Below, piece by piece: positions 12,849-51,073 of a stretch of DNA of 64,000 nt. Origin of the DNA: Azolla caroliniana (taxonomy: Eukaryota > Plantae > Polypodiophyta). Position 1 is the first letter of the stretch. Each line of letters starts with the position of its first letter. The position numbers and the translations under genes were made by a program. The notes under the pieces were generated by a model, which saw only the letters and a list, made by a program, of their open reading frames with translations, was not told the DNA's origin and made no database searches. The stretch spans positions 18,042,001 through 18,106,000 of the forward strand of contig JBHGNT010000017.1 of assembly GCA_043228905.1 (NCBI GenBank), written 5' to 3'.

Positions 12849-12910
12849 GCTAGTGTAATGGTAAGACATTACATTATTAACATGGAGGTGCAAGGTTCGA
12901 ATCTTGCCCT
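12849..12910 (+). promoter_or_regulatory. tRNA-like Pol III A/B-box unit in the element B LTR (copies ~15640-15700 and ~19568-19628)
   Basis: TAGTGTAATGGTAAGACA ... GCAAG-GTTCGAAT-CTTGC with tRNA-like spacing. Confidence 0.55.
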
Positions 12911-13014
12911 ATACATGTTCCATTTATTTTGCTATTTTCTTCTATTTCTTCATTTTTTATTGAATCTAATACTATATACGTTTTTCACGTAGTGTACAAA
13001 ATACACTACGACAC

Positions 13015-15039: not shown

Positions 15040-16127
15040 CTCCTTGCCACCCGCCTTCACGTCGGGTTCACCAACTGTGTCGTGCCTTTCGGCTTCGGAT
15101 CGTTGCGTGAGTCGGGTGGGAACCGCTGGGGTTTTGGACTAGGAAGAGGAGAGTTTTAAGGCTAATAAGAATATAAATATGTTGTAAGAAAGAGTTATAG
15201 CAAACTCGTGAATCCCACGAGTGTATTGTATTAGATTAATCAATATGAATATAAGAATATAAACTTCGGTTGAAAGAGAATGATATAGAATTCTCGTGAA
15301 TCCCACGAGTATAGTTTATTAATTGGTGTTTTTTAGAAACATATCCAGTTTCCAAATATTTTTCACACACAATTACATTGTGCTTCCCATCCTTATGTAG
15401 TGATGAGGAAGTCTTAGTAATCCATGCTTTTTCTCTAACTATAGACCCCATGCTTTTCCTATAGATAGACTATATGCTTTATCTAAAGTGATCATGCTTT
15501 TTCTAACTTGTGCGTTTTTTATCATGCACGCTAGATGTGTATGTGTAGCTTTTTCTTTTGTTATGCGTTTTTCTAATGTTTATCCTAGCGTGAATTTACC
15601 TTTCTATGTGGGACATCTATGCTTTAACACTAATGAAATGCTAGTGTAATGGTAAGACATTACATTATTAACATGGAGGTGCAAGGTTCGAATCTTGCCC
15701 TATACATGTTCCATTTATTTTGCTATTTTCTTCTATTTCTTCATTTTTTATTGAATCTAATACTATATACGTTTTTCACGTAGTGTACAAAATACACTAC
15801 GACAACGCGGGAGAGACAGAGAGAGTGAGAGAGAGAAAATACAAGAACTATATTCAACAAAAGATCTCAATTCACTACTCTATACATATGTGTGTTCCAT
15901 GAACACTTTTATACAAGTCCTCGAAGGACTGACTGAAGTACTGACCGTACTTCAATGCTCTTTAAGAGCTCCTACACTAACTACACTAACTCCCAAATAT
16001 ATTCCTCACGGAATATCTTTCCTAACGACCTCCTGGTTTACGCACTCGGCTTAACCGATCGGTCCCAACCAATCTGGTCCTAGGCTTCTTCAACCGATCC
16101 GGCCGATGTTGAGCTTGTCTCTCAACA

Positions 16128-29118: not shown

Positions 29119-30315
29119 TGAATGATTATTTCTGGCAAAGAAATAAGATAAGGTCAGACAAATAGTCATAACATCTTGTCGTGGTGTAAACATATCATGG
29201 GCAAACATTAATCGATATCATGATCTCACGTCAATACCCCTTTAGACGTATGAGATGAGGTTCAAGATCAGGTTACTATGGTAACACAGAGGTGTTTTAA
29301 AAACCATGGGGGTGACAAATGAATGCCTTTCCCTGATCTCTATATCGATTTTTTTCATGGCGGCTCCCCGAGGCTCAACCATGTATGTTCGCGTCATGAA
29401 TAGTTTATACACGAAAAAAATGTTAACAATAACTATGTTTCTGTGCCCACATATGTGGTTTCGGCTCTTTAAGTCCTATTACGAGGACCCCGAAGTGCAC
29501 TTAGACCTAAAGTCTAAACATGTATTATAGTCATATGTATCAACGATGTTGTATGGTGTTGGTCATATTTGAACTCGAGACCTCGAGGACAAATACATTA
29601 AACACTTGAGCCAACCAAGTATATTGCGCGTCTTGAATGTTTAATGTTTGAGGCGTATTCGAGATATGCGAGGCATTTGCCCCTATATGTTTTTGTTTAA
29701 AAGAAACATATAGGTCAAGTGGCCTTATTTCTCCCTCATTTATTACCCACTATGGTTGTACGCTACCTAACCTCAAGCCTCGTAATTACGATGGCATATG
29801 CCAAAGTGTAACCTAATGGTCAAGCCGAATGAGCCCTTGTGTCTTCGTAGGCTCATGTGGCCCATCACATGGTCACGTCATTACGAATGCCACTCGTAAG
29901 AACGAGCTCATGGTGGCATCGTATCCATGTAACGAGGGGAGATGTTGGATACGTGTGTCATTAGAGCGACCCTACTTGATGTGGATCAAGCCCGACGTAT
30001 TCAACATCATTTTGGCTATACGAGGTTCGTTACGTAACGAAATATCAAAGTGACCAACGGGAATTTCAACAATAAAAATTGTTGATAAAAGGGATGGTGA
30101 CAACGCCATTCTCACAAAAATGTGAGGACGGCCACCAAAATCCTCTCCCCAAGTAGGAAAACATTTGATATGAATCACGTAATCTAAAATATACACATAT
30201 GTCAATATATCACATATATACGATCAGAGACGTATATAAGTGACCACATATGCGTATACTAAATGAATCGTTTTTTTTTTATATAGCCAACAATGATGTA
30301 TTCGGGATACGTAAT

Positions 30316-30560: not shown

Positions 30561-33196
30561 GGACATATATAAACGTTTAAGATAACCAATTAAATACCAC
30601 GTCAACATCATTGAATATATGAAAAAAAAACTACATATTAAGTATACACATGTATAGAAGGGAGAAGAAAAATTAGATAAAAAATTAAGGAAAATTTACC
30701 GAAGTTCTTTCGCTAATCCTTGTCTGCATGAAGGCGACCGCACAACGATCAATCGCCATCCCACGCGAAGACAAAAAGAAAACCAAAAGAAACGTTAGTA
30801 CATAGGCTCTGATACCAAATATTAGAGATTAGGTACTAAAGTAAGCATAAAATAAGGATATATCAATGATAGATCTAGAAAGAATAGAGAGAAAAGAGAG
30901 AAAGAAGGGTGCCGATCCACCCGACCACCCCCGAGCGAAGGGATCGAGACGGACTCGAGCCTCGATCGGCGTCCCATACCACCGCCTTGGCGTCGAGTCG
31001 TACCTGGACAATAGCGCGCTTGCTACAAGAGTCGTTCCACTCACGGACAGAGTCTCGACGTAGTCAATGCATGCCCAAATGAGGGTAGCTAGGCCTCTTA
31101 TTTATAGTAATTCTCAAGGCCCCCAGCCATGTTCACACTTGGCCTCATGGGTTGTCTCAATCCCGAGGATTAAAAGTAATCCTCCCCTTCTTTAGACTCT
31201 TTGTTTAACCCTCACACTTATCCACGTGTATAGAATACTACGACAATTCTCACCACGGGATATTATATGGTCATGCCCGTAACACGAACTATGAGGAGGG
31301 AATGTCGGCACACAGAGGTGCTGAAAGGGAGTATAGGCGCGAAGGATGGTTGCCGGTTAAGGTGATCTCGAACGGAAGGTTGGAGAGGGATCCTCCACAC
31401 CGGTTTCGGAGACTTTGGAAGTTCAAACCGCCGAGGCAATGTAAGAACAAGGAGAAGGAAGGTGGTGGCAAGGGGACGAAGGCAACGGGCAACAACACGG
31501 GATGGCAACCGGGACGACGTGAAGGGCACCGACATGGAGGTCGGGGTGACGGCACGCTCTACTGAGAGAGAGCGCGACGAGCGAGGTAGAAACAAGGAGC
31601 GCATAATGGGGTCACCTAAGGACCGAAGAATGAGTGCGCATTCGGAGGACGACAATGACACATGGGTAGCGCCTACCGGAGGCAAGCGTGGATCAGATGG
31701 AGCCGATGGATCAGGGCCGGTAAGGAGCCAACAAGACGGTCGGGTGTCAGGAAGGCAGAGAACCCAGTTGATCACCGTCGCCGAAATCTCTCACCCTTTT
31801 CTTTCTTGGCACGTATCGGTGGACGTGCAATTTGGTGGGGGGCAGATGTCGTGAAGATTTCCAGCTACGGTGTGAAACTGGGGTGGAAAGGGCAAGTCGG
31901 TGGTGTGCAACATGGGCACATGTATAGTAGTAATATGGTATATAGAATAAGGGGAGAACTTATCCCACATTGTAACATCTCTCCCTCCTTGGGCTATAAA
32001 AGGAAGGGAGGGGTCACTTTGGAAGGGGTTGCCAATTTTGGAGTTAGAAGGGTATACCACTTAGGTCTAGGGTTTGGTAGTGTTCTTCCTCTTCATCTTA
32101 TTCTTGTTCCCTTAGGGTTTCTACTTGGGTCTTTTCACCCTATTTCGTTTAGGGTTCCATTTTGAGCTTTCTTCATCATTGTCTCGTGGGTTTGGTTCAT
32201 TCTTTTGAGTGGAGGTTAGTATTCTGTTTAGGTTTTTCTCCCGGAGAGAGTTCGTGCGAGTTAGGGTATGTTGTTTAGGGTTTCGGTTGCTACCCTCTCT
32301 TCTTCGTGTGAGAGTTTGGTTTGGTTTGAGGGTTCCTACAACAATGGGTTTAGCCATTCTGGTGGCGGTGCTTGGAGGTTCGGTTTCCTCTCCTCGATGG
32401 AGAGCGTTTCGCATGGCGGCCGGTTTGAGAAGGGAGGACGAAGCGGCACGGGAACACTCCATCGTCTTCGGGGCGTGACCAATGATGGACGTCGCGGTCC
32501 CGGCGGCCCATTTGACTCACCTTCACCAGTCCCCTATTCTTATCTTGAGATATTAACCGATTGTTTGTATTAGTCACTGGATTCAGGGCATATAACCATC
32601 TTGTTGTAAAGCTCTTGTAATATATATTCATGTTAGTGTATATCTATCTTCCTTGTAACATATTTGAGTCGGGTCCATATTCGCGTTGAACTGTTTTGTG
32701 AAACCCTACATTCCTTGGAGCCGGAAGCCGATTCCAGACCGCAACCCACAAAGCCTAAGGACTCCACCATTCGTCTCCCTAGTCCAAGACCCCCGCGGTT
32801 CTTCCTAGGATCCTACACGTACTCGCAGAATACCGCGACACCGTGCTCTTGTTCCCGGCACCGCCGTGTGCATCCTTCCGCCGTCCTTGTTCAGCACCGC
32901 CTGTGCCGAACACTGTCCTGTACTCATGCTTTGAATCGGCCCTTAATGGCCACATGCACGTCTCTCGTTCCGCTCCCAGGTGTGCCCTTATTAGCTCACC
33001 GCTCCTTGCTTGCCCTTATTGGCTCCTTCCGAAACTGTAACCGGCCGGTAAGGGTTCCACACTTCGTCAACTTCGGGCTTGCTGATTCCCGTCTCGCCGG
33101 ATCTTGATCCGCTCTTTTGTGTTGCCGGGTCCTGTTTCCTACGGCCACCGTCCTTCTCACTCGGTCTCACGATGTCGTGTCGGCTCGAGCTGCCGG

Positions 33197-33555
33197 TGTC
33201 GCGAAAATAGGAAGAGGACACGTGAACTTGAGGTAGGACCCTAGGGCCTCCGACTAAAGGATATCACATTCGTGCGTTTATATCTTTAACAATTAATGGA
33301 AATAAGAAATTTAATAATTTTCATTAACAAAGGAAAATAAATTACAATATGTCCCAAGATTGGGATTCAAAAGTTTTAGGTTTACTGTGATTAATAGAAA
33401 AGAAAAATTAGGGGTTTTGAGAGATATGGCTTTCGTAAGGAAAATTAGGGTTTTTGAGTGTTATGGCTTCCGTAGGGAAAATTAGAATTAGGTTATACGA
33501 GAGATATCGCTTCTGTAGGGAAAATTAGGGTTTTTGGGCCGGCACGTACGCTACC
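33197..33555 (-). mobile_element. Truncated LTR related to element E, inserted in element D
   Basis: Starts TGTCGCGAAAATA like 34696 and 48819; left flank CCGG; right end fused to copia integrase sequence. Confidence 0.7.
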
Positions 33556-36122
33556 TTCGATTAGATGGAGGCAAAGAATACTTTTCGGATGAGCTCACGG
33601 AGTATCTCTGAAAAGAAGGTATCCGACGAGAATTCTCATGCCATCACACGCCTCAACAAAATGGTGTAGCAGAGCGCAAAAACCGGCAGATTGTTGAAGT
33701 CGCACGGGCCATGATGAATGAGAAGAACCTGCCAAAATCGTACTAGGCAGAAGCAACAAACACGGATGTATACCTCATGAACAGGTGGACAACCTCGGGA
33801 GTGCACGACATAACTCCTCATGAGAAGTTCTTTGGAAAGAAGTCTTCGCATGTCCGCATTTTCGGCTCAATCGCCTATGTGCACATTCCCGACGATACGC
33901 GGCAAAAGCTCAATCCAAAGTCAGAGAAATGTATCCTCGTAGGATACTCGCTCGAACAAAAGGGGTACAAATGCTACAACCCATCTACCCGAAAAGTTCG
34001 AACAAGTCGAGACGTAGTCTTCGACGAATACGCATTCTGGTACACACCAAAGACGATTCCGATTACGGCCCCAACTGACCCTAATTTTGCCGTAATCGAT
34101 ATGGAGGAAGAAGATCATCTCTTGCATATGCACGAAGAAAGCCCAATTACGACACGGATGAGTAGACCACAAGAGCCCTCAAGTGATCAAAGCACATCTC
34201 GGCCAAGTCCAAAGCTAGCCAAAGGGAAGGTGAAAATGCAGGAATACGAAGATCATTTCGAACTTCACAATGAGTTCGAAAACCTTGACATACATATAGA
34301 CGGCATGAAGAAAGCTCTCATATCCACAAACGAAAAGCCGCGCCGCTCCACGCGTGAAAAGAACCCCGTAACCTGCTACGGCTACGACGAATACATGGCG
34401 TATCATTATGCGTTCATGATGAAGGTAGCGTAAGTACGGGAACAGGACACACTGTCCAAAGCCACAAAGGATCCACGATGGATCAACGCGATGAATGAGG
34501 AGATGGAAGCATTATGCAAGAACGAGACATGGGATCTTGTTCCTCTCCCCCCGAACAAGAAAGTGATTGGCTACAGATGGATTTACAAGGGGAAGCAGAA
34601 CATCGATGGCACCATAAATCACTTCAAAGCACGTCTTGTCACAAAAGGATACGCGCAAACCCACAACATAGATTACGAAGAAACGTTTGCCCTGGTGTCG
34701 CGAAAATACGACAAGGATACGTGAACTTGAGGCAGGACCCCGGGGCCTTCGACCAGAGGATATCAAATTCGTATATTTATCTTAAAGAATTAATGCAAAA
34801 TGAGAAAGATTGACAAATTTCACTAACAAAGGAAAAGAAAGATTACAATCAATCCCAATATTGGGATTACAAATAAGTTTGCTAATGGAGATTACTAGAG
34901 TAATAGATTAGAAGAAACTAAGATATGGATTTGATAGAAAATTAGGGTTTTTTTGCTTTGATGAGAAAATTAGGGTTTTTTAGTGATATGACTTTTCTAA
35001 GGAAATTAGGGTTTTCGGGATCCTATGGCTCCGATAAGGAAATTATGTGTTTCGGGATCGTATGGCTTCGATAGGGAAATTATGGTTTACTCGAGAGATA
35101 GATTCCTTCCCGTATGGAAAAAGAATCGAATTATGAGTGATAGATCCCTCCCCTTTACACTTGCATGAAGGAACTTCAATTTGCATCTCCAATTCCCTTG
35201 CATGCGTCCCACGTGGCGTTTTCTTTAGTTGCATGATCTCTACCTTTTCTTTGCATGCCTTCCAACTTTAGTTGCATGCGTCCACATGGCCTTTACTTTA
35301 GTTTCCTTTACTTTACTTTAATTAGCCACATGATCCTGTCATCCGTCTATCTCAATCGCCGCCCATCCAATTCGTCGGGTTTGCGTCCCACCTTGTTCGG
35401 TCGCCGGTTCCGCCCAATCACCGGTTCTGTCCGGTCGCCGGTTTCCGGTTTGATTACCGGCCAATTAGGGATTGATTTCCGGCCAGTTCTGGTTTGATTA
35501 CCAGCAGATTCGGGATTGATTTCCAGCCGGTTCCGGTTTGATTTCCAACCAGTTCCAATTTGATTTCCGGCCGGTTCTAGTTTCATTACCGGTCGGTTCC
35601 ATTTTATTGCCAGCCAATTTTGGGAACTTAGCCATATTCATCCATCTAGACAAAGTGGCCCAAGTGCTCATAGCACAAATGAAAAATGATGGTTCTCAAT
35701 GTGCTTATATAGCCAGAGCCTAAGTTTCCTATCTGGGATAAATCATAGTTCTATTTTCCCTATCTTCTCAAATTTTATGTTCATATAACTTAATATGTAG
35801 TTGTCCATTTTGTGTGTAGTAAAATGCGTTTTGAAGCTCTTGAGTACATCCATCTTTCTATAACAATCCACTAATCTAATCTAAAATACTTATTTCATTA
35901 TTTAATTTTTACATAGTATGAGAAGATTCACACGACATTCACCCACACCAAACCTGCACATCCACCGGTATGTGCCAATTTTGGTGAGGCTCCACTTTTG
36001 ATTACTTTATGTTAAGACTAACGTGTGGAAGCGTTTAGACAAACAAGATTACTGGTAGAAAACATAAAACAGAAAAATAAGGAGTTAAACGCAAGAGATA
36101 CTCTTACGCGGGAGAGAGCGAG

Positions 36123-36171
<49 letters not shown>

Positions 36172-39100
36172 GCAGAACGAGAAATCTATATTCAAAAATC
36201 TTGTAAAATTCTCTATACATACAACGTGCTCATTAGCATTATTTATACAAGTCCTCGGAGGACTGACAGAAGTACAGCGTACTTCAATGCTCACACGAGC
36301 ATTTGACACTAACTACGAGACTATTAATGCCTAGTAGTCTAGGCTACTAGTAGGCTTCCAGTTACTACTGCCCCCAGCTCACCGGCTCATTAGCTCATCG
36401 GGTTCTCACCAGCTCACCGATCTATCTCGCTCACGGGGCTCAGGCTTATTCAGCCGATCCGGCTCCAGTTGAGCTTGCCACTCAACACTCCCCCTCAAGC
36501 TCAACTTGAGGTTGGTTTGTAGTGTCAGTGTCCGTGGTAGACAATCCTTCCACCCGGCTCGCGCTCCTCGTCCGGTCCAGTCTCTTCTGCCACAACCCCT
36601 CTGGTTCTTCGCACCTCGACCTCCTTGGTCGGCATGTCTGCTCAACAAGCCCAATTCAACTCCCTCGCTATTGTGACTTTGGCGCTTGTCGACCCGTCGA
36701 TTCCTTCGTGTTGGCGTCGACTTTCGTTGCCTTCTCGTCCGCTTGGCCTTTCAGATTTGTCTGAATCGGCACGCTTTTTCCAGCACTCGCTTTCTCTGTG
36801 GCCCTTTTTGCCACAATACCAGCATTCTGTGTCGGCCTTTGCTTGCCGGCCTCCGGCGCCGCCTTGACTCTCCCTGCTTGTAGAGGGTCCGGAACTACTG
36901 TCGGCACGATCTTTGTGCCGTCTTTCCTGCTCTTGTCAACTGCCTCCATTGCTGCCGACCCACCTCGTCTTCCATGCCCACGAGGCCTATCCGCCTCCGT
37001 GTAAAGCATTCGGTTGTCTGTGGGTGCACTTGTTGATGCACCGGCGTGGTTCTCCTCTACAAGGAGGATCAACTGTAAGTCGAAAAACGACGACGTATTC
37101 TCTCTTGTGCATACTGCTATCCGGAAAACTCGGAACTTAGACACCAAGCCCCCAAGACATACCTGTACCATCTCATTTTCCTCTACAGTGACGTTGATAG
37201 AGGCAAGTGAGTCAAAGATCTCTTTGATCCAGACCGTGTAAGTGTAATCAGCCACCGACATGTCCTTTTGTCGGACATTGCTTAATTCTTGTTGGAGTTG
37301 TAGCTTCCGGGCTATAATGCTTGCGGCGAAGACCTTCTTTAGTTTTCCCCAATCTTCCTTTGGCGTCTTGGCATCTCGGATGTGGCTCAACAGCTAGTCT
37401 CCGACACTGGACGCAAAACAGTACATCACCCTGCTTGCCGCTTGTTCCCACTCTAGGAAGTCCTTGTGTGTCGCATCAGGTGTTGTGTTGTAAAAGAAAT
37501 AGCGTGCAGAAGCAATATAAAACCGAACACAGAAACGCAGGTTTAATGGAGAGCTTAGAATATACATAGTATGCGGGAGAGACAGAGAGAGAGAGCACAC
37601 AGAAAATCAATTCAAAAAGAATACTCAATGTGTGCATCGTATGTGTTCAGTGAACACTTTTATACAAGTCCATACAGACTGATAGAAGTACGGTATACTT
37701 CAACGCTCACATGAGTGTCTGACACTAACTTCGACACATTAACTACCTAGCAGCCTAGGCTGTTACTAAACTTCCAGTTATTGCAGGTTCCGGCTAACCG
37801 GCTCCCTAGCTCACTGGCTCACCAATACGGCTCATCCTTCCGGATGCCGATCCGGATCCAGTTGAGCTTTCCGCTGAACACTCCCCCTCAAGCTCAACTT
37901 GAGGTTGGATCGTAGTGTCAATCTCCATGGCAGTCGGTCCTTCCACCCGGCTCCTTCTAGCGTCACTCCGCCTCACTCGCGCTCCTCGTCCAGCCGGTCC
38001 TGTTTGCCGCGACCCTTTTGTTTTTGCGCACCTCAACCTCCTCGGTCGGGTTGTTTGCTCAACAAGCCCAAATCAGCTCCCTCGTTGTTGTGACTTCGGC
38101 GCTTGTCGATTCACCGATTCCTTCTTGTTGGCGTCGACTTTTGTTGCCTTCTCATCCTCTTGGCCTTGAATTGATCCGGTTCTTCTGAATCTGTCTGTTG
38201 AACCGAATCAACTGTCTCTTATTCGTTCCAGCTCTTGTTCGAATCGGTCGCTCCCAATTTGTCTTCCGGTTCCAGGCCCTTCATTACATCAGACCATGTC
38301 CGGGTCTTGGCCTTCTTCTTCCGGTTGACTCTATCCTTGTTGACTCTGTCGCCGCTACCACTTGTTCCGACTTGTTTGGATGTCAACTCGGCTCCTTTCT
38401 TCTTCTTGTCTCCCCCTTTGTCGGTTCTTCCCTCACCAGCGCAACCGGCAATTTCTTTGCCTTTGCCTGTTCCGGTGTCTTTGCTCGTGCCCGTTCTCCC
38501 CCTCAAGTGTGGCACGTCGAGATGCTGAACACCAAGCATTTCGGTGAAGTGTTACAACTTGTCCGATCCGAGCGGTTTGGTGAAGATGTCGGCAACTTGC
38601 TGATCCGTATGAACATACCGAAGTTCGACTTCACCGCTCAGGACAAGCTCATGCACAAAGTGGTAGTGCACTTCTATGTGCTTTGTGTGAGCATGGAATA
38701 CGGGGTTCTTGGCGAGCTGCATGCTGCTCATGTTGTCACAGTAGATCAGGATCGGAGTCGGCACCTTGATCCACAGGTCTTGCAGCAGTCGCCGAAGCCA
38801 AATGGCTTCACAGGTGGCAATGGTAACGCCCCGGTAGTCAGCCTCAGTGCTCGAGAGGGCCACTATTGGCTGCTTTTTGCTGCTCCACGCAACAGCCGTG
38901 CTACCAAGGGAAAACATATAGCCGGAGGTGGATCGGCGATCCGATGCATCGCCGGCCTGGTCGGCATCGGTGTAGCCGACTAGCTCTTCGGTTATACCAT
39001 GCCAGTTTAACAGTCCTCGTTCCTTCGTGCCGCTCCCATAGCGCAAAATTCGATGCGCGCACAGAAGGTGCTCCACGGTCGTCTTCTATATATATTGGTT

Positions 39101-42100
39101 GATCACGCCAACCGGATAACTGATGTCGAGTTGGGTGATTGTCGAATATATAAGGCTTCCAACGATTTGTCGGAACCGTTTCTCATGGCAGGCCGGTCTA
39201 TAGTCGGGACGGACCTTCTCGTTCCGGTCCAGGGGTGTAGAGATCGGGCGGCATTCCGTCATGCCGAACTTGTACAGCATATTCAACACATAGTGTCGTT
39301 GTGAGAGCAATATGCCGTCGAGGGTTCAGATCACCTCGATCCCAAGGAAACAGTGAAGTTCCCCCACGTCCTTCATCTCAAATGCGTCCGACAGTTGGGA
39401 CTTGACTCGGTTGATTTCATCGAGTCCAGGTCCGGTGATGACTAGATCATCAACATACAACAGGATGCAAACTGAACCGTCCGGACCTTGCCGGATGAAC
39501 AACGAAGAGTCAGACTTAGAGGCCGCAAACCCCATCTTACGCAACCGATGCGTGATCGTGGCATTCCAAGCTCGGGGGGCTTGCTTCAGGCCATAAAATG
39601 ACTTCTTCAACCGGCATACCGCCGACTTGTTCATCGCTGACTGGAAACCGGGGGGTTGGGTCATAAGGACCTCTTCTTCAAGATCGCCTTGAAGAAATGC
39701 ATTCTTCACATCCATCTGGTGAAGATACCACCCCCGTGCCGCAGCAACCGCCAACAGCACATGAACTGTCGTCATCTTCGCTACCGGAGCGAAGGTCTCG
39801 TCGTAGTCGATTCCGTGGGTCTGCGCGTATCCCTTCGCCACTAACCGGCCCTTGTACCGGTTAACCGAACCGTCGGCATTGTACTTTACCTTGTACACCC
39901 ACTTACGTCCGATCGATTTACAGTGTCAGGGAGGGTTAACTAGGTCCCATGTGTCGTTGGCATCAAGTGCCCGCATTTCTTCCTCCATAGCAGCACACCA
40001 ATTTTCATCCCTTGCCGCTTCTGCGTAGCTCTTCGGCTCACGCACTTCCGCCACCTTGGTCATGTACGCATATCGATGCGCCATGTTCTCATTGTACCCA
40101 TACCGCCTCACGGGGTTCTTCTGGCGGGAAGACCGGCGTAACTTATCGTTACCCGGTTTGAGGTCCTTCTTGGCCGGTTCAAACTTCACTCTCAAAGATC
40201 CACCTTCATCCTTTCCGTAGTCGGATTCGCTCCGATCCGACTCAATTCTTTGCGCGTGAACCGTCTCCTCGGTTCCTTGCGCAGGGAGAGCACGGCAGAG
40301 TCTCCATTACTCGTCGGTTCTTCATTGGACTGGTCATCCCGACTCACCCGCTCATTCGGTCCACTTAACCAAAATGAGGTTGGACTCTCTTCTAGAGTGC
40401 CAAGGTTTCATCTTCTAACTGGACCGATTCAGGCTCACTAGCCTCATCCTCCGGTATCGGCTCGGGGTCGGAAGTCGGAGCCGGTAAGGCATACCATGAT
40501 GCCGTCTCATCAAACTCAACATCCCGGCTAACTCAGACCTGCTTCGTCCGGGGGTTATAACATTTATACCCCTTTTGCTCATGCGAGTAACCGACCAGGA
40601 TGCATTTCTCTGACTTTGCATCCAACTTCCTCCGCTTCTCATCCGGCACATGCACATATGCAATGCTACCGAATATCCGAAGGTGTCTCAAATTCGGCTT
40701 GCGCCCGAAATATAGCTCATGCACGGACACCTTGTCACCAATCCGGTTTTGGATGTAGACGACCGTCCGGACTGCCTCCGCCAAGTAGAAATGGGGCATG
40801 CTCTTCTCCTCTAGCATTGCCCTTGCCACGTCAACAATCGACCGGTTCTTCCTTTCGGCCACACCATTTTGCTCCGGTGTGTATCTATAGTAGAACTCTC
40901 TCTAAATTCCTTTCTACTGCAGATAACTGTTGAATTGGCTGGAAAAATATTCTTTTCCGCCATCCAACCGCAGGCACTTGATATTCCTCTCCGTTTCCCG
41001 TTCAACCCGGCTTTGCAGGTTCCGGAAACACTCGAAGACTTCGCTCTTCCGCTCAATGAGGTAGATCCATATGTGCCAGATGTAGTCATCGATGAAGAAG
41101 ATGAAATACCGACTCCCGCCAAGACTAACGTTCTGTGCCGGTTCTCATACATCCGAATGAATAAGGTTGAGCTTGTTACGGCTACGGTTTCGTTCAGTGG
41201 GGAATAGAAGCCGGTGTTGCTTCCCGAGTTGGTAGACTTCACATATTTGGGCCTTCCGGCCACTGAACTTCGGCAAACCGAAAACAACTTGTTTCGTTTG
41301 TAGGACTTGAAGCCACCGGTAATTGATGTGGCCAATCCACTTGTGCCAAAGATCAATATCCGATTCAATCTTCTGTCCTTTGGCGATCAAAGCGGTGTCA
41401 ACGTCATTAGTGTCGAGGATGAACATCCTCCCATCTTTGCGCCCTTGCACAATGATTTGGCCCTCTTCCTCGATGAAGCACCCAAGGTGCGTAAACCGCA
41501 CCTGTATCCCCTAGTTAACGATCTAACTAACTGACACCAGGTTCTTCGTGATAGTCGGAATGTGTAATACGTTCATCAGCTTCCCCCTCTGTCCAACATG
41601 GATCAAAGGGACTTCTCCGACATGCACGATTGGGTGTGGAGTGTCATCTCCGGTTTCGACAACTCCTGGTTGTTCCGGTTTCTCCAAGAAAGAGAACCAC
41701 TCTTTGTGGTTCGTCATGTGATTCGACGCATTGGAATCAACATACCACACTTCCTCTGATTTGGAAGTGGTCTGCTTCATCGAGTTAGCCTCGTGTTTTA
41801 TCACCAAGGTTGGCCCTTTACTGGCTTTTCCGGTTTTGGATCCTCCCGATCCTTCTGCGTAGTGCAAGTATTGTTGGTTCTCTCTGTCGGCCTTGCTGGA
41901 TCCGGATCTGTCCAAATCGGCGCGCTTCTTCCAACACTCGCTTTCTCTGTGGCCCTTTTTACCACAATACCAACATTTTGTGTCGGCCTTTGCTTGCCAG
42001 CCTCCGGCGCCGCCTTGACTCCCCCTGCTTGTGGAGGGTCTGGAACTACTATCGGCACGTTCTTTGTGCCTTTGGTCCTGCACTTGCCGGCTGCTACCAT

Positions 42101-42494
42101 TGCGAGCCGACCCGCCTCATCCACCACGCCCACGGGGCCGATCCGCTTCCGTGTACAGCATCCAGCTATTGGTGGGTGCACTTGTTGATGCACCGGCGTG
42201 GTTCTCCTCTACAAGGAGCATTGACTATAAGTCGAAAAATGACGGTGTATTCTCCCTTGTACACACAGTAATTCGGAATGCTCCGAACTTTGACGCCAAT
42301 CCCCCAAGACAGATCTGCACCATCTCGCTTTCCTCGACATTCACATCAATGGAGGCTAAGGAGTAGCATATATCTTACTAGGACCAAATGGTCAAAACAA
42401 GGAGTGCGTAGAGATAGGCACAAGACGATTAGAGGGTGCTTAAGCTAAACAAGAGAAAGTAGGCAACATACACTAATGAGAGAGAGAGAGAGAG

Positions 42495-42570
42495 AGAGAG
42501 ATGTTTTTAATTCAAAGAGGGAGAGATGTTTTTAATTCAAAGAGGGAGAGATGTTTTTAATTCAAAGAGG
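42495..42570. repeat. Three tandem 25-bp units followed by (CT)n in the PLE 3' region
   Basis: GAGAGATGTTTTTAATTCAAAGAGG x3; reads ATTAAA on the element strand. Confidence 0.85.
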
Positions 42571-42574
42571 GTGG

Positions 42575-42629
42575 TGGTCTTAGGCAAACTAGTTTCGCTC
42601 AATAGTGGAGCTCTTCAGTGCAAAGACCA
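42575..42629 (-). ncRNA. Type I minimal hammerhead ribozyme
   Basis: Minus strand UGGUCUU-U-GCA CUGAAGA GCUC-CACUAUU-GAGC GAAA C-UA-G UU UGC-CU-AAGACCA: full core, stem I, stem II and palindromic mini stem III (AACUAGUU). Confidence 0.85.
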
Positions 42630-42871
42630 TTACAACAAGAGAATGTGATTTATAAAGGGGTGGGAAGGAAGAGGGAGTGAGAGAAAAAGGAGTGGGGAGG
42701 ATTTGATTTGTGTAGTAGATGAGAGAGAATAGAATGTGGTGATGAGAGAGAGAGAGAGAGAGAGAAATGTGTGTAGGAAAGTGATAGGGAATGAGAGAAG
42801 GGAAATTAGTATAATGATGATGGTGAGGGGGGAGTTTTTAATGTGATGAAAAAGGGGGATTTGGGATAATA

Positions 42872-43073
42872 TTAAGTGGGGGATGTGGGTGAATTATTTG
42901 AAAACTTAGTGTTAAGTGGGGGATTTGGGTGGATTGTTTGAAACTTTAGTCTTAAGTGGGGGATTTGGGTGGATTGTTTGAAAATTTAGTCTTAAGTGGG
43001 GGATTTTGGTGGATTGTTTGAAAACTTAGTTTTAAGTGGGGGATTTTGGTGGATTTTTTGAAAACTTGGTCTT
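42872..43073. repeat. Five tandem 40-bp units overlapping the PLE stop codon
   Basis: AAGTGGGGGATTTGGGTGGATTGTTTGAAAACTTAGTCTT-like unit x5. Confidence 0.9.
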
Positions 43074-44747
43074 AACTAGGAGGGCATTTAAGGACTTAGA
43101 TTTTGTCCAACATACGAAAGGGCGTGAGATGCTTGTAAGCTCGGGATCTAACATTAAGTCATTATAGAGATTTTTTAGAAAACTATGAATGCCTAGTTTT
43201 GGGGTATGTTTGGTGTATCTAAGTTTAAAGATTGTGGGGTTAAGGGAAGTAATAGTTTTGGGTTGATATAGGAGTGTTTTTCTAAGACTAAAAGGTATTT
43301 TCTTATAGCATTTTAGTATAAAGGATGGAGGGTAACCACGGTTAACTAGTCTATTGAAAAAGAGTTTTTTCATTTGGTAGAAACCTAATGGGGTGCTTTC
43401 TCTAATAAGATATCTCTTCACTTCATTAGTGATAAAGTGTTGTTTCGTATGGGAAGGATGATCCGATGAAAAAGGCAAGTATTGGTATGAATTGAGAGGT
43501 TTTTGAAAACAATTGAATAAGAAAGATGAATTTTTGAGGTTGATCCATATGTCTAAAAAAGGTAGCCGAAAGGGGGAAGTTTGAATGGTAAGCTTGATGG
43601 AGTTATTTGTGTGTGAAGGGTAAAAGTCGAGATATTCTAAAAGTTGAGATTTGGTGCCTGTCCAGACCCCAAATGCATCATCAATATAGCGGGTGAAGTA
43701 GAAGAGATGGGGGGGCGATGGTTGTAAGTTTTCGAGATATACTAAAAAGAGGCATGCATATACGACTGAAAAGTTGCTACCCATGGCCGTACCTTTTATT
43801 TGTTGGTAAACTACGTCATCGAAAGTGAGATAGTGATATTCTAAAATAAGGGCACTAAGGGTATAGATGAGATTTGTTTTCGAAGGGGAAAAGTGGGGGG
43901 TGATTAGACTACGTAGGGCTTGGAGTCCTAACTTAGGGGGGATACTAGGATAGAGAGATTCAACGTCAAACGTGAATAAGAAACTATTAGATGGTGGGTG
44001 TAGGTTTTCTAGTGATTGGATTAGTGTGTGAGAGTCTTTTAGATATTGTGGTTGGAGAAGGAGGATTGGTAAAAGTTGGTGGTGTAACCACTTCGATGTT
44101 TGTTCAAATAAGGAGTTATTATATGAACAAATGGGCCGGAAACCCATAGGTGTTTTGTGTAATTTAGGGAGGAAATAGAGGTTGGATACTTGATATCCTT
44201 TTTTGGGTTTGTGGAGGATGAAATTAGCTTCAATTGGGGAAAGTGTACCTAAGTGGTTTGTTATTATGTTATTAAGGCGGTATAGTAACTCTTCCAAGGG
44301 GAAGTGGCTGACTCTCTTATAGGTGGTAGAATTCGAGAGGTGTTCTATGGCTTTGGTGTAGTATGTGTCTTTATCTAGAACACATACTCCCATATTTTTA
44401 TCGGCTGGGAGGATGATAATGTGTTTGTTGTGTTGGAGGCTTTTAAAGGCTCTAGAGAGGTGGTATGGGATTCTAGTGTTTATGGGTTTAGTGTTGTGTG
44501 CTATTTGGTTAAGGATGTGTTGGTGTTTTTCTATTATGGAGACTAGGGGTGGATATTCTGTGGGTGGCATCCAACTAGGGTTAGGTAGTTTGAAGGGGTT
44601 GAGAGGAAGTGAAGGTGTATTTCTAAAAAAATGTTTTAGCTTGAGGGATCTCGAGAGGTGGGTGAATTCTTTTAGGATATTGTTGGGTGAGGGAGGTGGG
44701 GATGGTAGGATATACTTAAGGCCTAGGTTTAGCAATTGTGTTTCATT
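43032..44747 (-). CDS. Penelope-type reverse transcriptase plus thumb, uninterrupted (~570 aa), no C-terminal GIY-YIG; start missing
   Basis: LLNLGLKY, ILPADKNMG, YFLPKLHK, RPICS, TFDVESLYPSI, QIKGTAMGS, YFTRYIDD, LPFLDI, YLPFSSDHP, NRGYP. Confidence 0.9.
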   Translation of the reverse strand, partial: NETQLLNLGLKYILPSPPPSPNNILKEFTHLSRSLKLKHFFRNTPSLPLNPFKLPNPSWMPPTEYPPLVSIIEKHQHILNQIAHNTKPINTRIPYHLSRAFKSLQHNKHIIILPADKNMGVCVLDKDTYYTKAIEHLSNSTTYKRVSHFPLEELLYRLNNIITNHLGTLSPIEANFILHKPKKGYQVSNLYFLPKLHKTPMGFRPICSYNNSLFEQTSKWLHHQLLPILLLQPQYLKDSHTLIQSLENLHPPSNSFLFTFDVESLYPSIPPKLGLQALRSLITPHFSPSKTNLIYTLSALILEYHYLTFDDVVYQQIKGTAMGSNFSVVYACLFLVYLENLQPSPPHLFYFTRYIDDAFGVWTGTKSQLLEYLDFYPSHTNNSIKLTIQTSPFRLPFLDIWINLKNSSFLFNCFQKPLNSYQYLPFSSDHPSHTKQHFITNEVKRYLIRESTPLGFYQMKKLFFNRLVNRGYPPSFILKCYKKIPFSLRKTLLYQPKTITSLNPTIFKLRYTKHTPKLGIHSFLKNLYNDLMLDPELTSISRPFVCWTKSKSLNALLVKTKFSKNPPKSPT

Positions 44748-46821
44748 TTGCTGGATCCGGATCTGTCCAAATCGGCGCGCTTCTTCCAGCACTCGCTTTC
44801 TCTGTGGCCCTTTTTACCACAATACCAACATTTTGTGTCGGCCTTTGCTTGCCAGCCTCCGGCGCCGCCTTGACTCCCCCTGCTTGTGGAGGGTCTGGAA
44901 CTACTATCGGCACATTCTTTGTGCCTTTGGTCCTGCACTTGCCGGCTGCTACCATTGCGAGCCGACCCGCCTCATCCACCACGCCCACGGGGCCGATCCG
45001 CTTCCGTGTACAGCATCCAGCTATTGGTGGGTGCACTTGTTGATGCACCGGCGTGGTTCTCCTCTACAAGGAGCATTGACTATAAGTCGAAAAATGACGG
45101 TGTATTCTCCCTTGTACACACAGTAATTCGGAATGCTCCGAACTTTGACGCCAATCCCCCAAGACAGATCTGCACCATCTCGCTTTCCTCGACATTCACA
45201 TCAATGGAGGCTAAGGAGTAGCATATATCTTTGATCTTCAAGGTGTAATCAGTCACTGACAAATCGCGTTGTCGTAGGTTGCTCAACTCCTGTCGGAGTT
45301 GAAGCTTCCTGGTTGTAGTTCTTGCGGCGAAAATCTTCTTCAGATTTCCCCAAGCATCTTTCGGCATTTTTGCATCCCGAATGTAGCTTAGGAGTTGTTT
45401 GCCCAGACAAGACGCGAAGCAATACAATACTCTACTCGTCGATTTTTCCCACATAGGGAAATCTCTGTGTGTCGATTCGGGTGCTATGTCATTTGCTCCA
45501 TTGACATAGCTCCAGTAACCGTGCCTGAGCAGGTACTGGTGCATCTTGTAGGACCAAGATGCGTAGTTGTTTCTGTCAAGCTTCTCCGTTGGAAGCGAGC
45601 TAGCCATGCCTCTATCCATCGGTTTTTACCTGTTCTTCTTGGTTGGTTTTCTTTTCAAGTTATGTCGGCTGCAGAGGTTCTCAACCCTCACGCTCTGATA
45701 CCATGTAAAAGGAATAGCGTGCGGAAGCAATAGAAAACCGAACACAGAAACACAAGTTTAATGGAGAGCTTAGAATATACATAGTACGCGGGAGACAGAG
45801 AGAGAGAGAGCACATAGAAAATCAATTCAAAAATAATACTCAATCTATGCATCGTATGTGTTCAGTGAACACTTTTATACAAGTCCATACGGACTGACAG
45901 AAGTACGGTATACTTCAACGCTCACACGAGCGTCTGACACTAACTTCGAGACATTAACTACCTAGCAACCTAGGTTGTTACTAAGCTTCCAGTTACTGCT
46001 GGTTCCGGCTAACCGGCTCCCCATCTCACCGGCTCTCTTGCTCACCGGCTCACCGATCTGGCTCATCCTTTCGGATGTCGATTCGGATCCGGTTGAGCTT
46101 GCCACTCAACATGTGTCGTTAGCTCCGTCGACATAGCTCCAGTAACCATGCCCAAGCAAGTACTAGTGCATCTTGTATGACCAAGATGTGTAGTTGGATC
46201 TGTCGAGCTTCTCCATTGGGAATGAGCTAGCCATTCCTCTATCCATATCTTTTTGTGTCTGTTCTTACCGGGTGTTAGGGTTTGTCTTTAGAAGCTATGT
46301 CAGCCTCAAAGGTTCTCAACACTCGCGCTCTGATACCATGTTAAGACTAACGTGTGGAAGCGTTTAGACAAACAGGTTTACCGGCAAAAACAGAAAACAG
46401 AAAAATAAGGAGTTAAACGCAAGAGATACGCTTACGCGGGAGAGACAAAGAGAGAGAGACTGTGTGTGAGCAAAACAAGACATCTATATTCAAAACTCTT
46501 GTAAAATTCTCTACAACGTGCTCATCAGTACTATTTATACAAGTCCTCAGAGGACTGACAGAAGTACAACGTACTTCAATGCTCACACAAGCATCTGACA
46601 CTAACTACGAGACTATTAATGCCCACTAGTCTAGGCTACTACTAGGCTTCCGGTTACTACTGGACCCAGCTAACCGGCTCCCCAGTTCACCAGTTCGTTA
46701 GCTCACTAGGTTCTCCCCGGCTCACCGATCTATCTCGCTCACCGGCTCAGGCTTATTCAGCCGATCCAGCTCCAGTTGAACTTGCCGCTCAACACTTTAC
46801 CTTTTTATTGATGTACCCAAA

Positions 46822-48766
46822 TCACCATTGCCATCCGATCCACCATATTCTTCGTTCACTCTTTGCATTTCCATGACCGGTTGTCATGGCTCTCTTTGCT
46901 CCTCTTGAGCATAATGCTTCATGCCTCGTGCATGGGCTACCTTCATCTCGACCATCTCCTTGGTCATCTAATTTTCTTTTATCATTCTTTCTTATTCCAT
47001 GCATGTCTTTCAAAAGCCTTATCAAAATACGATGGTTGAGTACTCTTAGTGATTCGTTCTTTTGCGGCATGCTCTCCTCTAGGTCCTTAAGTGACCACAT
47101 TGCATGCTTCCCACTTTGTCCACTTTCGTGGTATACTCTCGTGTTGGATTTGACCATGACTTCTATGCTAGTATCATCCTTGTTAGATTTTGTGATCACG
47201 TCTTTCGTATCCGCTTGGCCCACTTGGCCCACATCTTTGCCTTTTGAGGTTTGCTTGGTCTCTTTGTTGCACACATTAGCTTTTGTCTTCATGCTTTGCC
47301 TAACCTCTTTGTCGCACGCATGAACTTTCGTCATTTTGCTTTGCTTTACTTCATTGTTGCACACACTAGCTTTAACCCTTGCTTCCTCGCCGCCATCGTC
47401 CTTCTCTTGGGTCTTACATCGGTTAATGCCCAAGTCTCTCAAACGAGTGTGGAGGAATTTTGTAGTTTGGCATTGCCTTTGTCGTGCCACTCTTAGCCAC
47501 TTCCACCTTGTGGTTGTTCACATTGGCGTTGATCTTTGTTTCCTCACCGCCACCTTCCGTCTCTTGGGTCTTACATCGGTTAATGCCCAAGTCTCAAGAA
47601 CTTTTGTGGGGAAAGTCTCTTCATGATCTTTGTCTTCCCTCTTTGGCTTGACGTCTCCCTCTTCTTCGCATGTGTTACCTTCGACCTTCACTTCCTCGTC
47701 GCCACCTTCCGTCTCTTGGGTCTCATGTTTGCTTTTCGACACAACTACCCAAGTCTCTGGAACAAGTGTGGAGAAAGTCTCGACACGGCCATCCGCCATT
47801 GACTCGTCCTCAGCCACCTCTAACTCGATGTCATTTTTCGTGGCTATCTCCGCAATCACATTGGCCTCACACTTTTTATCTCCCTTGATCATGCAAGCTT
47901 TGCTCATGCTTGCACCTTCATCACTTGATGTTTCAGACACGATGCGTGTTCCAAAACATTTGTCCTCGCTTGAAGTTGCATTCGCCACCCTCAATTCATT
48001 GGTTTCATTCTTCATCATTCTTTCTTTGCAAGATGAGAAGGTGTCTTGTTCCACACCTTCTTCCATGGTACCATCATGGTACCGAACATGGACCTTCGTA
48101 TCGACCGTAACATTAATCCGCATTTGTTGGGAGGCCTCTTCTTCCTCGATCACCATTTGCTTCAGTTTTTGCTCCTTTTGGAGCTTCTCTTCAGCACCAT
48201 CTTGCACCTTTAAGTTCTCTAATGCTTCGCTAATTAAGGCTTCTATGTTGAGTATCGAATCTTCCCTCTTCAAGCTTTCTTCCTTCGGTGGTGGCATGTT
48301 GTTGCATTTTGTCCTCCTTCGATCATCCCTCATCGGTCGTGACATTGTCGACAATATTCCTATCCTCCTCTTGTCATTTCGTTGGCATACCTTTTTCACT
48401 TCGTCCCAATTTTCAATGAGGCCATTCGCACCATCGTCATCCTCGAGTTGGACTCCAATGGCGTTCCTCTCCTTCCGATCAATCGATTTCACAAACATTA
48501 GGACTTTATCTTCCCCCACCAATCTTTGATCCCGCTCCGAGAGTTGGGCAAAGCGACTCTCGAACTCAACGAAACCATGCATGGCACTATGGTGGGTTTT
48601 CATCGATGACACCCATTGGTTGAACTTATATAGAATTTGTCCCTCCGCCTTTTTGTAAGCTTCATTGATTGAAGCCTCTCGATCTCTCGCCTTGAGCATG
48701 ATTTCCACAACAGACATTATGCCTTTCATCAATTCCTCTCCTTGAGTTCCACTTGTCGAAGCCATC
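46822..48766 (-). pseudogene. Element E Gag-derived ORF (frameshifted), homologous to the element B ORF
   Basis: Shares VGEDKVLMFVKSIDRKER, LEDDDGANGL, DESMAD and AKSERR(I/L)WWIG with the element B protein. Confidence 0.8.
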
Positions 48767-51073
48767 TTCGCACTTGATATCCTCCTACTGCCTCGTTTCA
48801 CGTCGGGTTCACCAAAGATGTTGCGAAAATACGACAAGGATATGTGAACTTGAGGCAGGACCCCGGGGCCTCCGACTAGAGGATATCAAATTCGTATGTT
48901 TATCTTAAAGAATTAATGCAAAATGAGAAAGATTGACAAATTTCATTAACAAAGGAAAAGAAAGATTACAATCGAGATTACTAGAGTAATAGATTAGAAG
49001 AAATTGAGATATGGATTCGATAGAAAATTAGGGTTTTTTGGCTTTGATGAGAAAATTAGGGTTTTTTAGTGATATGGCTTTTCTAAGGAAATTAGGGTTT
49101 TCGGGATCCTATGGCTCCGATAAGGAAATTATGGGTTTCGGGATCCTATGGCTTCGATAAGGAAATTATGGTTTACTGAAGAGATAGATTCCTTCCCGTA
49201 TGGAAAAAGAATCGAATTATGAGTGATAGATCCTTCCCCTTTACACTTGCATGAAGGAACTTCAGTTTACATCTCCAATTCCCTTGCACGTGTCCCACGT
49301 GGCGTTTTCTTTAGTTGCATGATCTCTACCTTTTCTTTGCATGCCTTCCAACTTTAGTTGCATGCGTCCACATGGCCTTTACTTTAGTTTCCTTTACTTT
49401 AATTAGCCACATGATCCTATCATTTGTCCGTCTCAATCGCCGCCCATCCAATCCGTCCGGTTTGCGTCCAGCCTTGTCCGGTCACCGGTTCCGCCCGATC
49501 ACCGGTTCTGTCCAATCGCCGGTTCTCGATTTGATTGTCGGCCGGTTCCGGTTTGATTTCCGGCCGGTTCCCGATTTGGTTCCCGCATGCGAAGCCGTAT
49601 GGCTTAAGCGTATACTAAAGGATTTGGGCACACCCATCAAAGATCCAATACGCCTCTACTACGATAACATGAGTAGTATTCATTTGGCGCGGAATCCCGT
49701 ATTTCACTTGTGGACCAAACACATAGAAGTGTACTACCACTTCATCCGCAAGCGCGTACAGGCAAGAGAAATCGATCTCCAACACATTAGCATGCACCTA
49801 CAAGTCGTTAATATCTTTACGAAGGCCTTAGGCATTGACAAGCTCGAGCAATTCGCTTCAGACCTTGGTCTCATGACATATACATTGCCGAGCTTGAGGG
49901 GGAGTACTATACGCGACGACATGGAAGGGGTACGCAATGATACACATGCAATACATGATCGCGTACTCCACGCAGCCGACTAGTCAAGTCGAAGTACAAA
50001 CCGAACAACTTTTTGACAGATGGAAGTTGTGTTCGAAGGGGCGTGTTGAGAATCGAACTCAACTTCCCATAGGAATAGGTTTCACACTAGCTCATGGACA
50101 TTCCAGGCTAGTTTTGTAAATAATAGAAAGGGCACTTGCCCTAGCTTAGTTGGTATTTAAACCAACTCATTGTAACTTAGTTGGGTGTTGGAAGTACTTT
50201 TATTGTTAATACAATTTACCGTTTTCTCTATCTTTGTCTTGAGCTCTCTCTATCTCACTCCCTCTCTGTTGTACACACACGTTTGTCTTCCGCTGCATTA
50301 TACCATTGACTCCATTTCTTTACATCTTTTCGTAAAACTATTTAAGATTTCACTCCAACTCAAAATTTTACTTTGAAGATTTTGACTATCCTTGTTTAAT
50401 TGAGAATAACATTAGATAGCACATTTATAAAGTTAATGTATATGAATACCAAAACCCAATTACATTGAAGATTAAAAGACTGGTCTAGTTTTCGCCTCTA
50501 TTATATGGATTGGATTGAAACGTAAGAATATAAGAAGATGGAGATGTAGGAATTGTGGGTAGAGCTTTGGAAGGATCTCCTCAAGTTTTTATTAAGGCGT
50601 CCAATGAGACAATTTCGTTTCTCTTGTTGTCGATGGTCTCTAACATCCTCTTGATTCACTACCCCAAAGCTCATTCAAGATTTTGACAAAGCTTTCACCT
50701 TGATGCAAAATTCCCCCAAACCATGAACTTTCCTCTCGCTTGCGTAGGTTTTAAGAGGCCCTTACCAATATAGTAGCACTTGATCACCAGACTCAATTTA
50801 TACAAAAATTTGATGTCCCTTTTCATTTTTACCACATACCTCAACAATGTACCTTGTTGCTTACTATAGAATACATTTCTCCATTCGTCATCTATTACGA
50901 GATTTAAACCCCTAACCTTTCGCTCATAGTGTACTTTCTTTGACAATTGAGCGAAGTATTTCAATTGTCTTCCCGCTCACCTTATCTTGTGACCTTCTTT
51001 TCGTACATCTGCCTATCCATATTTCCTCATGTGCACTTCTCACATCACACTAGTGTTACATTGCATTTGTAGA

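What the first reader, a model, noticed from the sequence alone, without database searches (positions are those of the whole stretch)
42377..44747. Interstitial Penelope-like retroelement with an open RT and no C-terminal endonuclease, nested five levels deep in LTR elements
Seen: an uninterrupted PLE-type RT-thumb ORF stops right after the ...SKSLNALLV motif, where C-terminal-EN PLEs continue into GIY-YIG; the 5' end is cut at the RT N-terminus; no telomeric repeats at either junction. Known: EN-minus PLEs (Athena, Coprina) usually attach to telomeres, and the Chlamys clade carries its EN N-terminal to RT. Inference: this is either an EN-less PLE mobilising at internal breaks or a 5'-truncated N-terminal-EN PLE. 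Either would be a little-studied land-plant lineage, and the intact ORF suggests recent activity.
Basis: partly seen in the sequence, partly recalled or inferred. Interest (0 to 1): 0.82.

Follow-up and report, generated by a model that had tools for sequence, protein, structure and literature searches.

The report
Nuclease-free retroelement patching broken plant DNA
A young, shortened copy of a telomerase-like jumping gene with no DNA-cutting domain sits between two copies of the same 484 bases of host DNA, and many relatives across this plant genome carry similar scars, so it likely spreads by copying itself into chromosome breaks that it did not make.

Summary
The element is real: a 5'-truncated Penelope-like element (571-aa open RT whose model matches telomerases best). 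The full element (about 5 kb) has an upstream ORF1 and the RT ORF; no GIY-YIG, CxC or IFD was found. It belongs with the endonuclease-less Selaginella 'Coprina'/gymnosperm lineage, not Chlamys. Flanking duplications of about 40 bp to 4 kb occur at 10 of 34 non-satellite copies of this family and 8 of 26 sister-family loci. 3' junctions share microhomology with the element RNA (mean 2.8 nt, chance 0.7), and some internal junctions carry short telomere-repeat seeds. 89 of 101 placed RT hits lie over 1 Mb from contig ends. A type I hammerhead and a predicted -1 frameshift signal joining ORF1 to RT are conserved across families. Best reading: RT-primed repair of pre-existing breaks. EN-less plant PLEs are known, and this scan noted related elements before (two notes in this genome, several elsewhere); the kilobase duplications and the frameshift signal did not turn up in my searches. 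Nesting: four levels confirmed, not five.

The parts
42377..44747 (-). 5'-truncated copy of an endonuclease-less Penelope-like element (3' 2.37 kb of an element of about 5 kb)
   Evidence: 47 matches in the own genome, shared 3' end, variable 5' ends
43032..44747 (-). Open RT frame, 571 aa plus stop; lacks the first 51 codons from the conserved Met (91 from the predicted frameshift site); no IFD, CxC or GIY-YIG
43675..43688 (-). Catalytic YIDD motif
42872..43075 (-). Tandem repeat with a unit of about 40 bp spanning the ORF end and the start of the 3' UTR
42647..42659 (-). TATA-like box just upstream of the hammerhead; same position in sister families (predicted promoter of the terminal repeat)
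42576..42628 (-). Type I hammerhead motif with palindromic 2-bp stem III; predicted cleavage between 42587 and 42586
   Evidence: 190 genome matches against 0 for the reversed control; Rfam did not detect it
42397..42408 (-). Conserved motif about 20-35 nt before the 3' junction in all families seen; candidate RT-positioning signal (inferred)
42371..42376 (-). 6-nt microhomology shared by the element RNA and the target at the 3' junction
41893..42376 (.). Copy 1 of the 484-bp host duplication (copia gag), next to the element 3' end
   Evidence: paralogous copia elements hold this stretch once
44748..45231 (.). Copy 2 of the 484-bp host duplication, next to the element 5' end; 2 mismatches to copy 1
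37490..46111 (-). Host copia element (level 1), LTRs 87.7% identical, 5-bp target duplication
36010..46796 (-). Copia element (level 2), LTRs 81% identical, 5-bp target duplication
34696..49570 (.). LTR element (level 3), LTRs 89% identical; it splits the pol region of a plus-strand copia (level 4, about 33550-50300)

Best explanation
This is a recent, 5'-truncated copy of an endonuclease-less, Coprina-type Penelope-like retroelement that likely inserts by using the free 3' end of a pre-existing chromosome break as primer. Shown: two ORFs, no recognisable nuclease, dispersed young copies, a 3' junction that varies over about 10 nt just before the ORF1 start codon of the terminal repeat, microhomology there, flanking duplications of about 40 bp to 4 kb or small deletions instead of a fixed short target duplication, and short telomere-repeat seeds at some internal junctions. 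Inferred: (1) transcription starts near the TATA box of an upstream terminal repeat and the hammerhead cuts the RNA 5' end; (2) RT is made as an ORF1-RT fusion by a -1 ribosomal frameshift; (3) the RT pairs a broken DNA 3' end with 0-7 nt of its RNA at an internal site and copies towards the 5' end, usually stopping early; (4) the cDNA end is joined to the other DNA end. Where both ends carried the same host stretch (long complementary 3' overhangs that were filled in, or re-copying at a broken replication fork) that stretch is duplicated, 484 bp here. Which of these two break types makes the duplications is not resolved.
For: No EN: full-length copies; 1 GIY-YIG hit genome-wide, not at a listed PLE; a PLE-type EN query gave 2 matches at E 0.4-0.7 only; none of the 47 best homologues carries PF01541; the 34-row land-plant clade (SH-aLRT 100) has no EN+ row. 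Duplications: 10 of 34 non-satellite copies, 8 of 26 sister loci including 3,826, 3,142 and 3,046 bp at 99.4-99.97%; control 6 of 150 random sites, 4 in the satellite locus and 2 at one site with a 247-bp offset. Approximate target deletions of 4-115 bp at up to 6 copies. Microhomology mean 2.8 nt at 17 junctions against 0.72; 0 of 100,000 simulations reached it. Telomere seeds at internal junctions: between duplication and 5' end (L145, L152), at 3' junctions (L166, L167), both orientations at C3:1.695 Mb. One full-length copy has its 5' terminal repeat inverted from the junction site to the hammerhead cut site, as expected if both break ends primed. Five copies begin within about 2 nt of the predicted cut site. 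Slippery A-AAA-AAC plus stem-loop in 5 families; 66 genome matches, control 0.
Against: Most copies show no detectable duplication (24 of 34; 18 of 26), and for most of these the empty site is unknown. 3 of 17 junctions have no microhomology and 3 have 1 nt. RT hits are mildly enriched near contig ends (4 of 101 within 100 kb, 0.9 expected; 11 within 500 kb, 4.7 expected) and several sit in a 178-bp satellite that adjoins telomere arrays, so a terminal bias remains. The ORF1 model was uninformative (pLDDT 48), so a cryptic nuclease is not excluded by structure. Long duplications also arise with endonuclease-bearing Dualen LINEs (PMC9977147 passages). A Poseidon PLE initiates without homology, and its hammerhead is dispensable in vitro (PMC11167929 parts 1-2). 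One 85%-diverged copy lacks the slippery heptamer. No biochemical or expression data.
Confidence: 0.75

Rival explanations
1. The element borrows a nuclease (a LINE endonuclease or a host enzyme acting in trans, or an unrecognised nuclease in ORF1) that makes two widely spaced nicks, so the duplications are true, very long target-site duplications.
For: Duplications start exactly at the 3' junction and end at the 5' junction, as in TPRT; Dualen LINEs with two endonucleases give duplications of median 900 bp. LINE nucleases in this genome were not surveyed.
Against: Sizes span two orders of magnitude and other copies show deletions; no target consensus was evident by eye beyond the microhomology; telomere seeds point to persistent free ends; the ORF1 conserved region is helical with only Pro/Leu invariant across 14 homologues and no Pfam or PDB nuclease match.
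Confidence: 0.15
2. These are ordinary telomere-attaching Coprina elements whose internal copies are former chromosome ends moved inward by rearrangement.
For: Closest described relatives (Selaginella) are telomeric; mild subterminal enrichment; some sister families carry telomere-like C-rich tracts in the terminal repeat; 2 sister 3' ends join short telomere repeats.
Against: 0 of 37 copies of this family have two or more telomere repeats within 300 bp of a junction; both flanks belong to one host element and are duplicated; 89 of 101 hits lie over 1 Mb inside; the one copy seen touching a terminal array (C7) faces the opposite way to terminal transposition.
Confidence: 0.05
3. The flanking duplications are assembly artefacts from merging an empty and a filled allele.
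For: The youngest duplications are 99.4-100% identical; no raw reads of this genome were laid.
Against: Older duplications have diverged (93-98%) and two carry later indels of 260 and 644 bp in one copy; ends coincide with microhomology and in one case enclose a telomere seed; neighbouring LTR elements show normal 5-bp duplications.
Confidence: 0.03
4. A 5'-truncated Chlamys/Naiad or PLE-X element, with its endonuclease or CxC region upstream of the break.
For: PLE-X families are EN-less, plant-borne and in Chara genome-wide (PMC8557442 section 9).
Against: No GIY-YIG upstream in full-length copies; no CxC; motif A-B' spacing of 59 aa equals the Selaginella homologue's 60; RT3/RT4 motifs match the published 'Selagine1' row, not Chlamys rows; the three EN+ homologues scanned have a C-terminal EN.
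Confidence: 0.02

Closest known systems
EN-minus Coprina-clade PLEs of Selaginella moellendorffii (Sm1/Sm2; 'Selagine1' in Craig et al. 2021 Fig. S1) and EN(-) PLEs of Pinus/Picea
   Same: RT without EN; same RT3 and RT4 motifs as the Selagine1 row; Selaginella, Ginkgo and Cryptomeria homologues in one clade; type I hammerhead in the terminal repeat; two ORFs, tandem arrays, 5' truncation.
   Different: Dispersed, not telomere-attached; this family has no telomere tract at its 3' end; flanking duplications up to 4 kb; predicted -1 frameshift. I could not read Gladyshev and Arkhipova 2007 or Lin et al. 2016, so what they report on position and ORF joining is unknown to me.
PLE-X (EN-minus Chlamys-related; Chara braunii, Selaginella 28S rDNA)
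   Same: EN-less plant PLE with non-telomeric insertions; the authors call its insertion mechanism open.
   Different: PLE-X has CxC and CxCX1-8C motifs and belongs to the IFD-bearing clade; none is present here; no Rfam match at 14 sister loci, so no rDNA targeting seen.
Athena/Terminons of bdelloid rotifers; fungal Coprina-1_Alen
   Same: EN-less, coiled-coil ORF1 plus RT ORF, hammerhead near the 3' end, priming by base-pairing with a free DNA end, telomere caps on truncated ends.
   Different: Those pair with telomeric overhangs through repeat tracts at chromosome ends; here pairing is 0-7 nt of chance microhomology at internal sites.
Poseidon PAc (Anolis) internal initiation
   Same: Reverse transcription starts inside the RNA near the terminal repeat/ORF junction.
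   Different: PAc cuts its own target with GIY-YIG and needs no homology.
Dualen LINE duplications (Chlamydomonas) and R9 (rotifer)
   Same: Unusually long duplications flanking a retroelement (median 900 bp; 126 bp).
   Different: Both are non-LTR elements; the authors attribute the Dualen duplications to its two endonucleases, whereas this element has none.

Membership tests
Penelope-like elements | RT closest to telomerase RT | tested here: met
   First 11 Foldseek matches are TERTs. The sequence-profile PDB search was weak and ranked prokaryotic RTs first, TERT at E 0.11.
Penelope-like elements | Pseudo-LTRs, tandem or inverted arrangement, 5' truncation | tested here: met
Penelope-like elements | Hammerhead motif in the terminal repeat | tested here: met
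   Core invariant, distal stem I re-pairs through different sequences in 7 copies; cleavage activity not tested
Coprina (EN-minus PLE) | No GIY-YIG endonuclease | tested here: met
Coprina (EN-minus PLE) | RT groups with Coprina references | tested here: inconclusive
   Clade with a Selaginella protein and motif identity with the published Selagine1 row; the tree held no named fungal Coprina, Athena, Neptune or Chlamys reference
Coprina (EN-minus PLE) | Attachment to telomeres through reverse-complement repeats next to the hammerhead | tested here: not met
   0 of 37 copies of this family; 89 of 101 RT hits over 1 Mb from ends; only short seeds at a few sister junctions
Naiad/Chlamys | N-terminal GIY-YIG | tested here: not met
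Naiad/Chlamys and PLE-X | CxC motif and insertion-in-fingers domain | tested here: not met
Penelope/Poseidon (Dryad), Neptune, Nematis, Hydra | C-terminal GIY-YIG in the RT ORF | tested here: not met
   Same stop position in 9 of 15 long copies (571 aa), earlier stops in the other 6; sister families and land-plant homologues end at the same place

The most novel reading that the evidence does not exclude
A telomerase-related retroelement lineage in land plants has left the telomere and become a genome-wide break-filling element: a frameshift-made ORF1-RT protein competes with telomerase for broken DNA ends, primes on microhomology at a fixed internal RNA site, and leaves tandem duplications of up to 4 kb, so that each insertion records the geometry of a spontaneous chromosome break.
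Probability: 0.55. Interest if true: 0.8.

Novelty: new variant of a known kind. Interest (0 to 1): 0.62.

Why it matters
How endonuclease-less PLEs reach internal sites is stated as open in Craig et al. 2021. This genome supplies more than 100 copies, many young and with intact RT frames, whose junctions can be read; they point to priming at existing breaks, sometimes on repeats that telomerase likely added first. That makes the proposed functional link between PLE and telomerase RTs testable with a small protein and a defined RNA start site. Kilobase duplications made at insertion would also be a source of structural change in plant genomes, and a gag-pol-like frameshift would explain how a two-ORF PLE expresses its RT.

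Tried and rejected
Pfam found no family in the window ORF and phmmer found no PDB sequence; only the model and the homologue search identified it. Rfam missed the hammerhead. rDNA targeting: no Rfam match at 14 sister loci. ORF1: Atlas gave no usable hit, the AlphaFold model was low-confidence and was not fold-searched, PDB and Pfam profile searches gave nothing meaningful. RNAalifold did not recover the hammerhead fold, so stems were checked per sequence. Fused forms: 14 longer homologues; the 9 best (Closterium, Ginkgo, one unnamed) list no GIY-YIG. Expression: no RNA holder listed; two guessed-RNA contig sets covered only fragments; no evidence either way. Short (under about 25 bp) target duplications could not be called reliably. 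Rows dropped: 3 satellite copies from the duplication count; 2 near-identical unplaced-contig duplicates; 2 of the 11 rows from the microhomology test (one failed context search, one LTR-LTR match); 31 of 132 RT hits (C5 and unplaced contigs) from the position test. [quoted passage not shown] 2016, Arkhipova et al. 2017; they and their supplements may already mention internal copies or a frameshift (from recall, some Athena/Terminon ORF pairs were reported to use frameshifting; unchecked). Searches that did not surface the duplications or the frameshift in EN-less PLEs: (0 papers).

Full report
Observation. The minus-strand frame 43032-44747 encodes 571 aa without a stop. Pfam does not recognise it, but its homologues are PLE-type RTs and its model (pLDDT 93.4) matches telomerase RTs in ranks 1-11 of the PDB search. 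The frame ends 13 residues after SKSLNALLV and is followed by 655 nt without a GIY-YIG. The copy lies 1.0 Mb from the end of contig C17, inside the gag of a copia element. Four nested LTR elements are supported, two by 5-bp target duplications; a fifth level was not established. The host copia LTRs are 87.7% identical, while the two copies of host DNA flanking the PLE differ at 2 of 484 bases, so the PLE came in long after its host.

The family. A DNA search of the own genome gave 47 matches (40 of 298 candidates scored). Copies share the 3' end and differ at the 5' end. Longer copies run up to about 2.7 kb further upstream and carry ORF1. An RT search gave 132 matches (131 of 466 candidates scored) from at least five families, 65-82% identical in protein. 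Intact sister copies show the plan: TATA-like box, hammerhead, pyrimidine-rich tract, a conserved short motif, the 3' junction zone, the ORF1 start, ORF1 (745-881 aa: helical N-terminal part, Pro-Asn repeats, Pro/His-rich tail), ORF2 in the -1 frame, 3' UTR, then the terminal repeat again. Head-to-tail arrays of 2-4 units exist. No GIY-YIG was found in ORF1 or ORF2; the genome has one PF01541 hit, away from every listed PLE, and a PLE-type EN query found nothing significant.

Placement. In a quick IQ-TREE tree of 119 RT rows (the 120 listed homologues minus those covering too little of the core, plus five genome sequences) the window RT lies in a 34-row clade (SH-aLRT 100) with Selaginella, Ginkgo and Cryptomeria proteins, none with a GIY-YIG annotation. 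The tree had no named PLE references. The RT3 and RT4 motifs match the 'Selagine1' row of Craig et al. Fig. S1 (supplement part 54), and the motif spacing shows no IFD. ORF1 has distant homologues, including Cryptomeria proteins whose locus numbers alternate with RT genes. It works like Coprina/Athena (EN-less, primes on a free end) and descends from the plant Coprina lineage, but fails the telomere-attachment feature.

How it inserts. Of 37 distinct copies, 3 lie in a 178-bp satellite and cannot be scored. Ten of the other 34 have the host sequence after the 3' end repeated before the 5' end: about 40, 103, 125, 255, 484, 530-660, 817, 975, 1,870 and 4,030 bp. A stricter scripted test passed 11 of 37, of which 2 are satellite and 1 has incoherent offsets, against 6 of 150 random sites. 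Paralogous host elements hold the stretch once. In sister families 8 of 26 loci show the same: 112, 119, 286, 349, 389, 3,046, 3,142 and 3,826 bp, the last around a 23-kb array of four units; a ninth of about 33 bp is likely. Many loci had short flanks or were interrupted, so these are lower bounds. Up to six other copies show approximate target deletions of 4-115 bp. At 17 junctions with a known target, element RNA and target share 0-7 nt, mean 2.8 against 0.72 by chance; the window copy shares 6. Telomere-repeat seeds of 1.5-10 units sit at several internal junctions of sister families; telomerase use at internal breaks is reported in mammals (PMC2246262, abstract only), and breaks with complementary 3' overhangs give tandem duplications by fill-in (PMC8355091, abstract only). 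In the C14 copy the 5' terminal repeat is inverted from the junction zone to the hammerhead cut site, which fits priming from both ends of one break. Against a purely internal life: 4 of 101 placed hits are within 100 kb of a contig end (0.9 expected), and contig ends need not be telomeres.

RNA signals. The hammerhead core is invariant, stem III is a 2-bp palindrome of the dimer type, and distal stem I re-pairs through different sequences in seven copies; 190 exact motif matches against 0 for the control. Three short copies of this family (against 28 contexts that keep the core), the inverted C14 piece and one full-length sister copy begin within about 2 nt of the predicted cut, indirect evidence that the RNA 5' end is made there. 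ORF1 ends a few codons after A-AAA-AAC, and a -1 slip there enters ORF2; a stem-loop follows in all five families (z -1.7 to -6.1 against a crude block shuffle). One diverged copy lacks the heptamer. The frameshift is predicted, not shown; an in-frame Met lies 40 codons downstream.

Literature seen. PMC8557442: passages, section 9, supplement parts 1 and 54 and a supplement search. PMC4209133: parts 1-2 of 4. PMC11167929: parts 1-2 of 4. PMC6431247, PMC13159263, PMC12477314, PMC9033089, PMC9977147 and bioRxiv 10.64898/2026.07.22.740005: passages. Three key papers were not held. EN-less PLEs in Selaginella and conifers, and EN-less PLE-X with genome-wide spread, are already described; I found no description of kilobase flanking duplications or of a frameshift for them in ten searches.

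Earlier notes of this scan (unchecked) report related hammerhead-bearing ends in this genome and EN-less PLEs at internal sites in other genomes. One calls the host a fern and favours chromosome-tip attachment; I did not test the host, and my counts do not support tip attachment as the main mode.

Verdict. A new variant of a known kind: an endonuclease-less plant PLE lineage that has spread through chromosome interiors, most likely by filling existing breaks (0.75). Interest 0.62.

Noticed in passing
L152:3470-3680 (G000:C8, near 11.409 Mb): Between the 286-bp duplication and the 5' end of a sister PLE lies a short telomere seed plus a stretch that looks like antisense 5S rRNA (recognised from recall, not searched): a possible templated insertion at the second junction.
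   Followed up: no
L101:6000-6500 (G000:C3, near 1.695 Mb): Two different PLE families joined head to head with telomere-repeat runs in both orientations and an inverted RT fragment between them, 1.7 Mb from the contig end.
   Followed up: partly
L098:1-7900 (G000:C7 start); L092 (G000:C46): Terminal telomere arrays followed by a 178-bp satellite; on C7 the array is joined directly to a broken ORF1 of a PLE tandem, suggesting healing of a break inside the element.
   Followed up: partly
L041-L044, L090-L097: A 178-bp satellite fills the ends of C3 and C8 and several unplaced contigs and hosts many PLE copies; whether it is a preferred target was not tested.
   Followed up: no
L033, about 1590-1640 nt upstream of the window copy's 5' end: ORF1 of this family contains an in-frame near-copy of the element's own 3' junction sequence, possibly a relic of an old self-insertion.
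   Followed up: no
L065:5718-6004 (G000:C1, near 28.662 Mb): Two short terminal-repeat copies in tandem, separated by a copy of the 40-bp target: repeated priming at one break.
   Followed up: partly
window 24694-29217 (-): Intact 1,507-aa chromovirus-type Ty3/gypsy polyprotein with LTRs 99.4% identical (24240-24707, 30817-31284): a very young element.
   Followed up: no
window 12287-15804: LTR element with 100% identical 727-bp LTRs and a 707-aa frame without any Pfam match.
   Followed up: no
window 59849-60913 (+): Host gene exon with a PC-esterase domain, the only host gene seen among the ORFs scanned.
   Followed up: no
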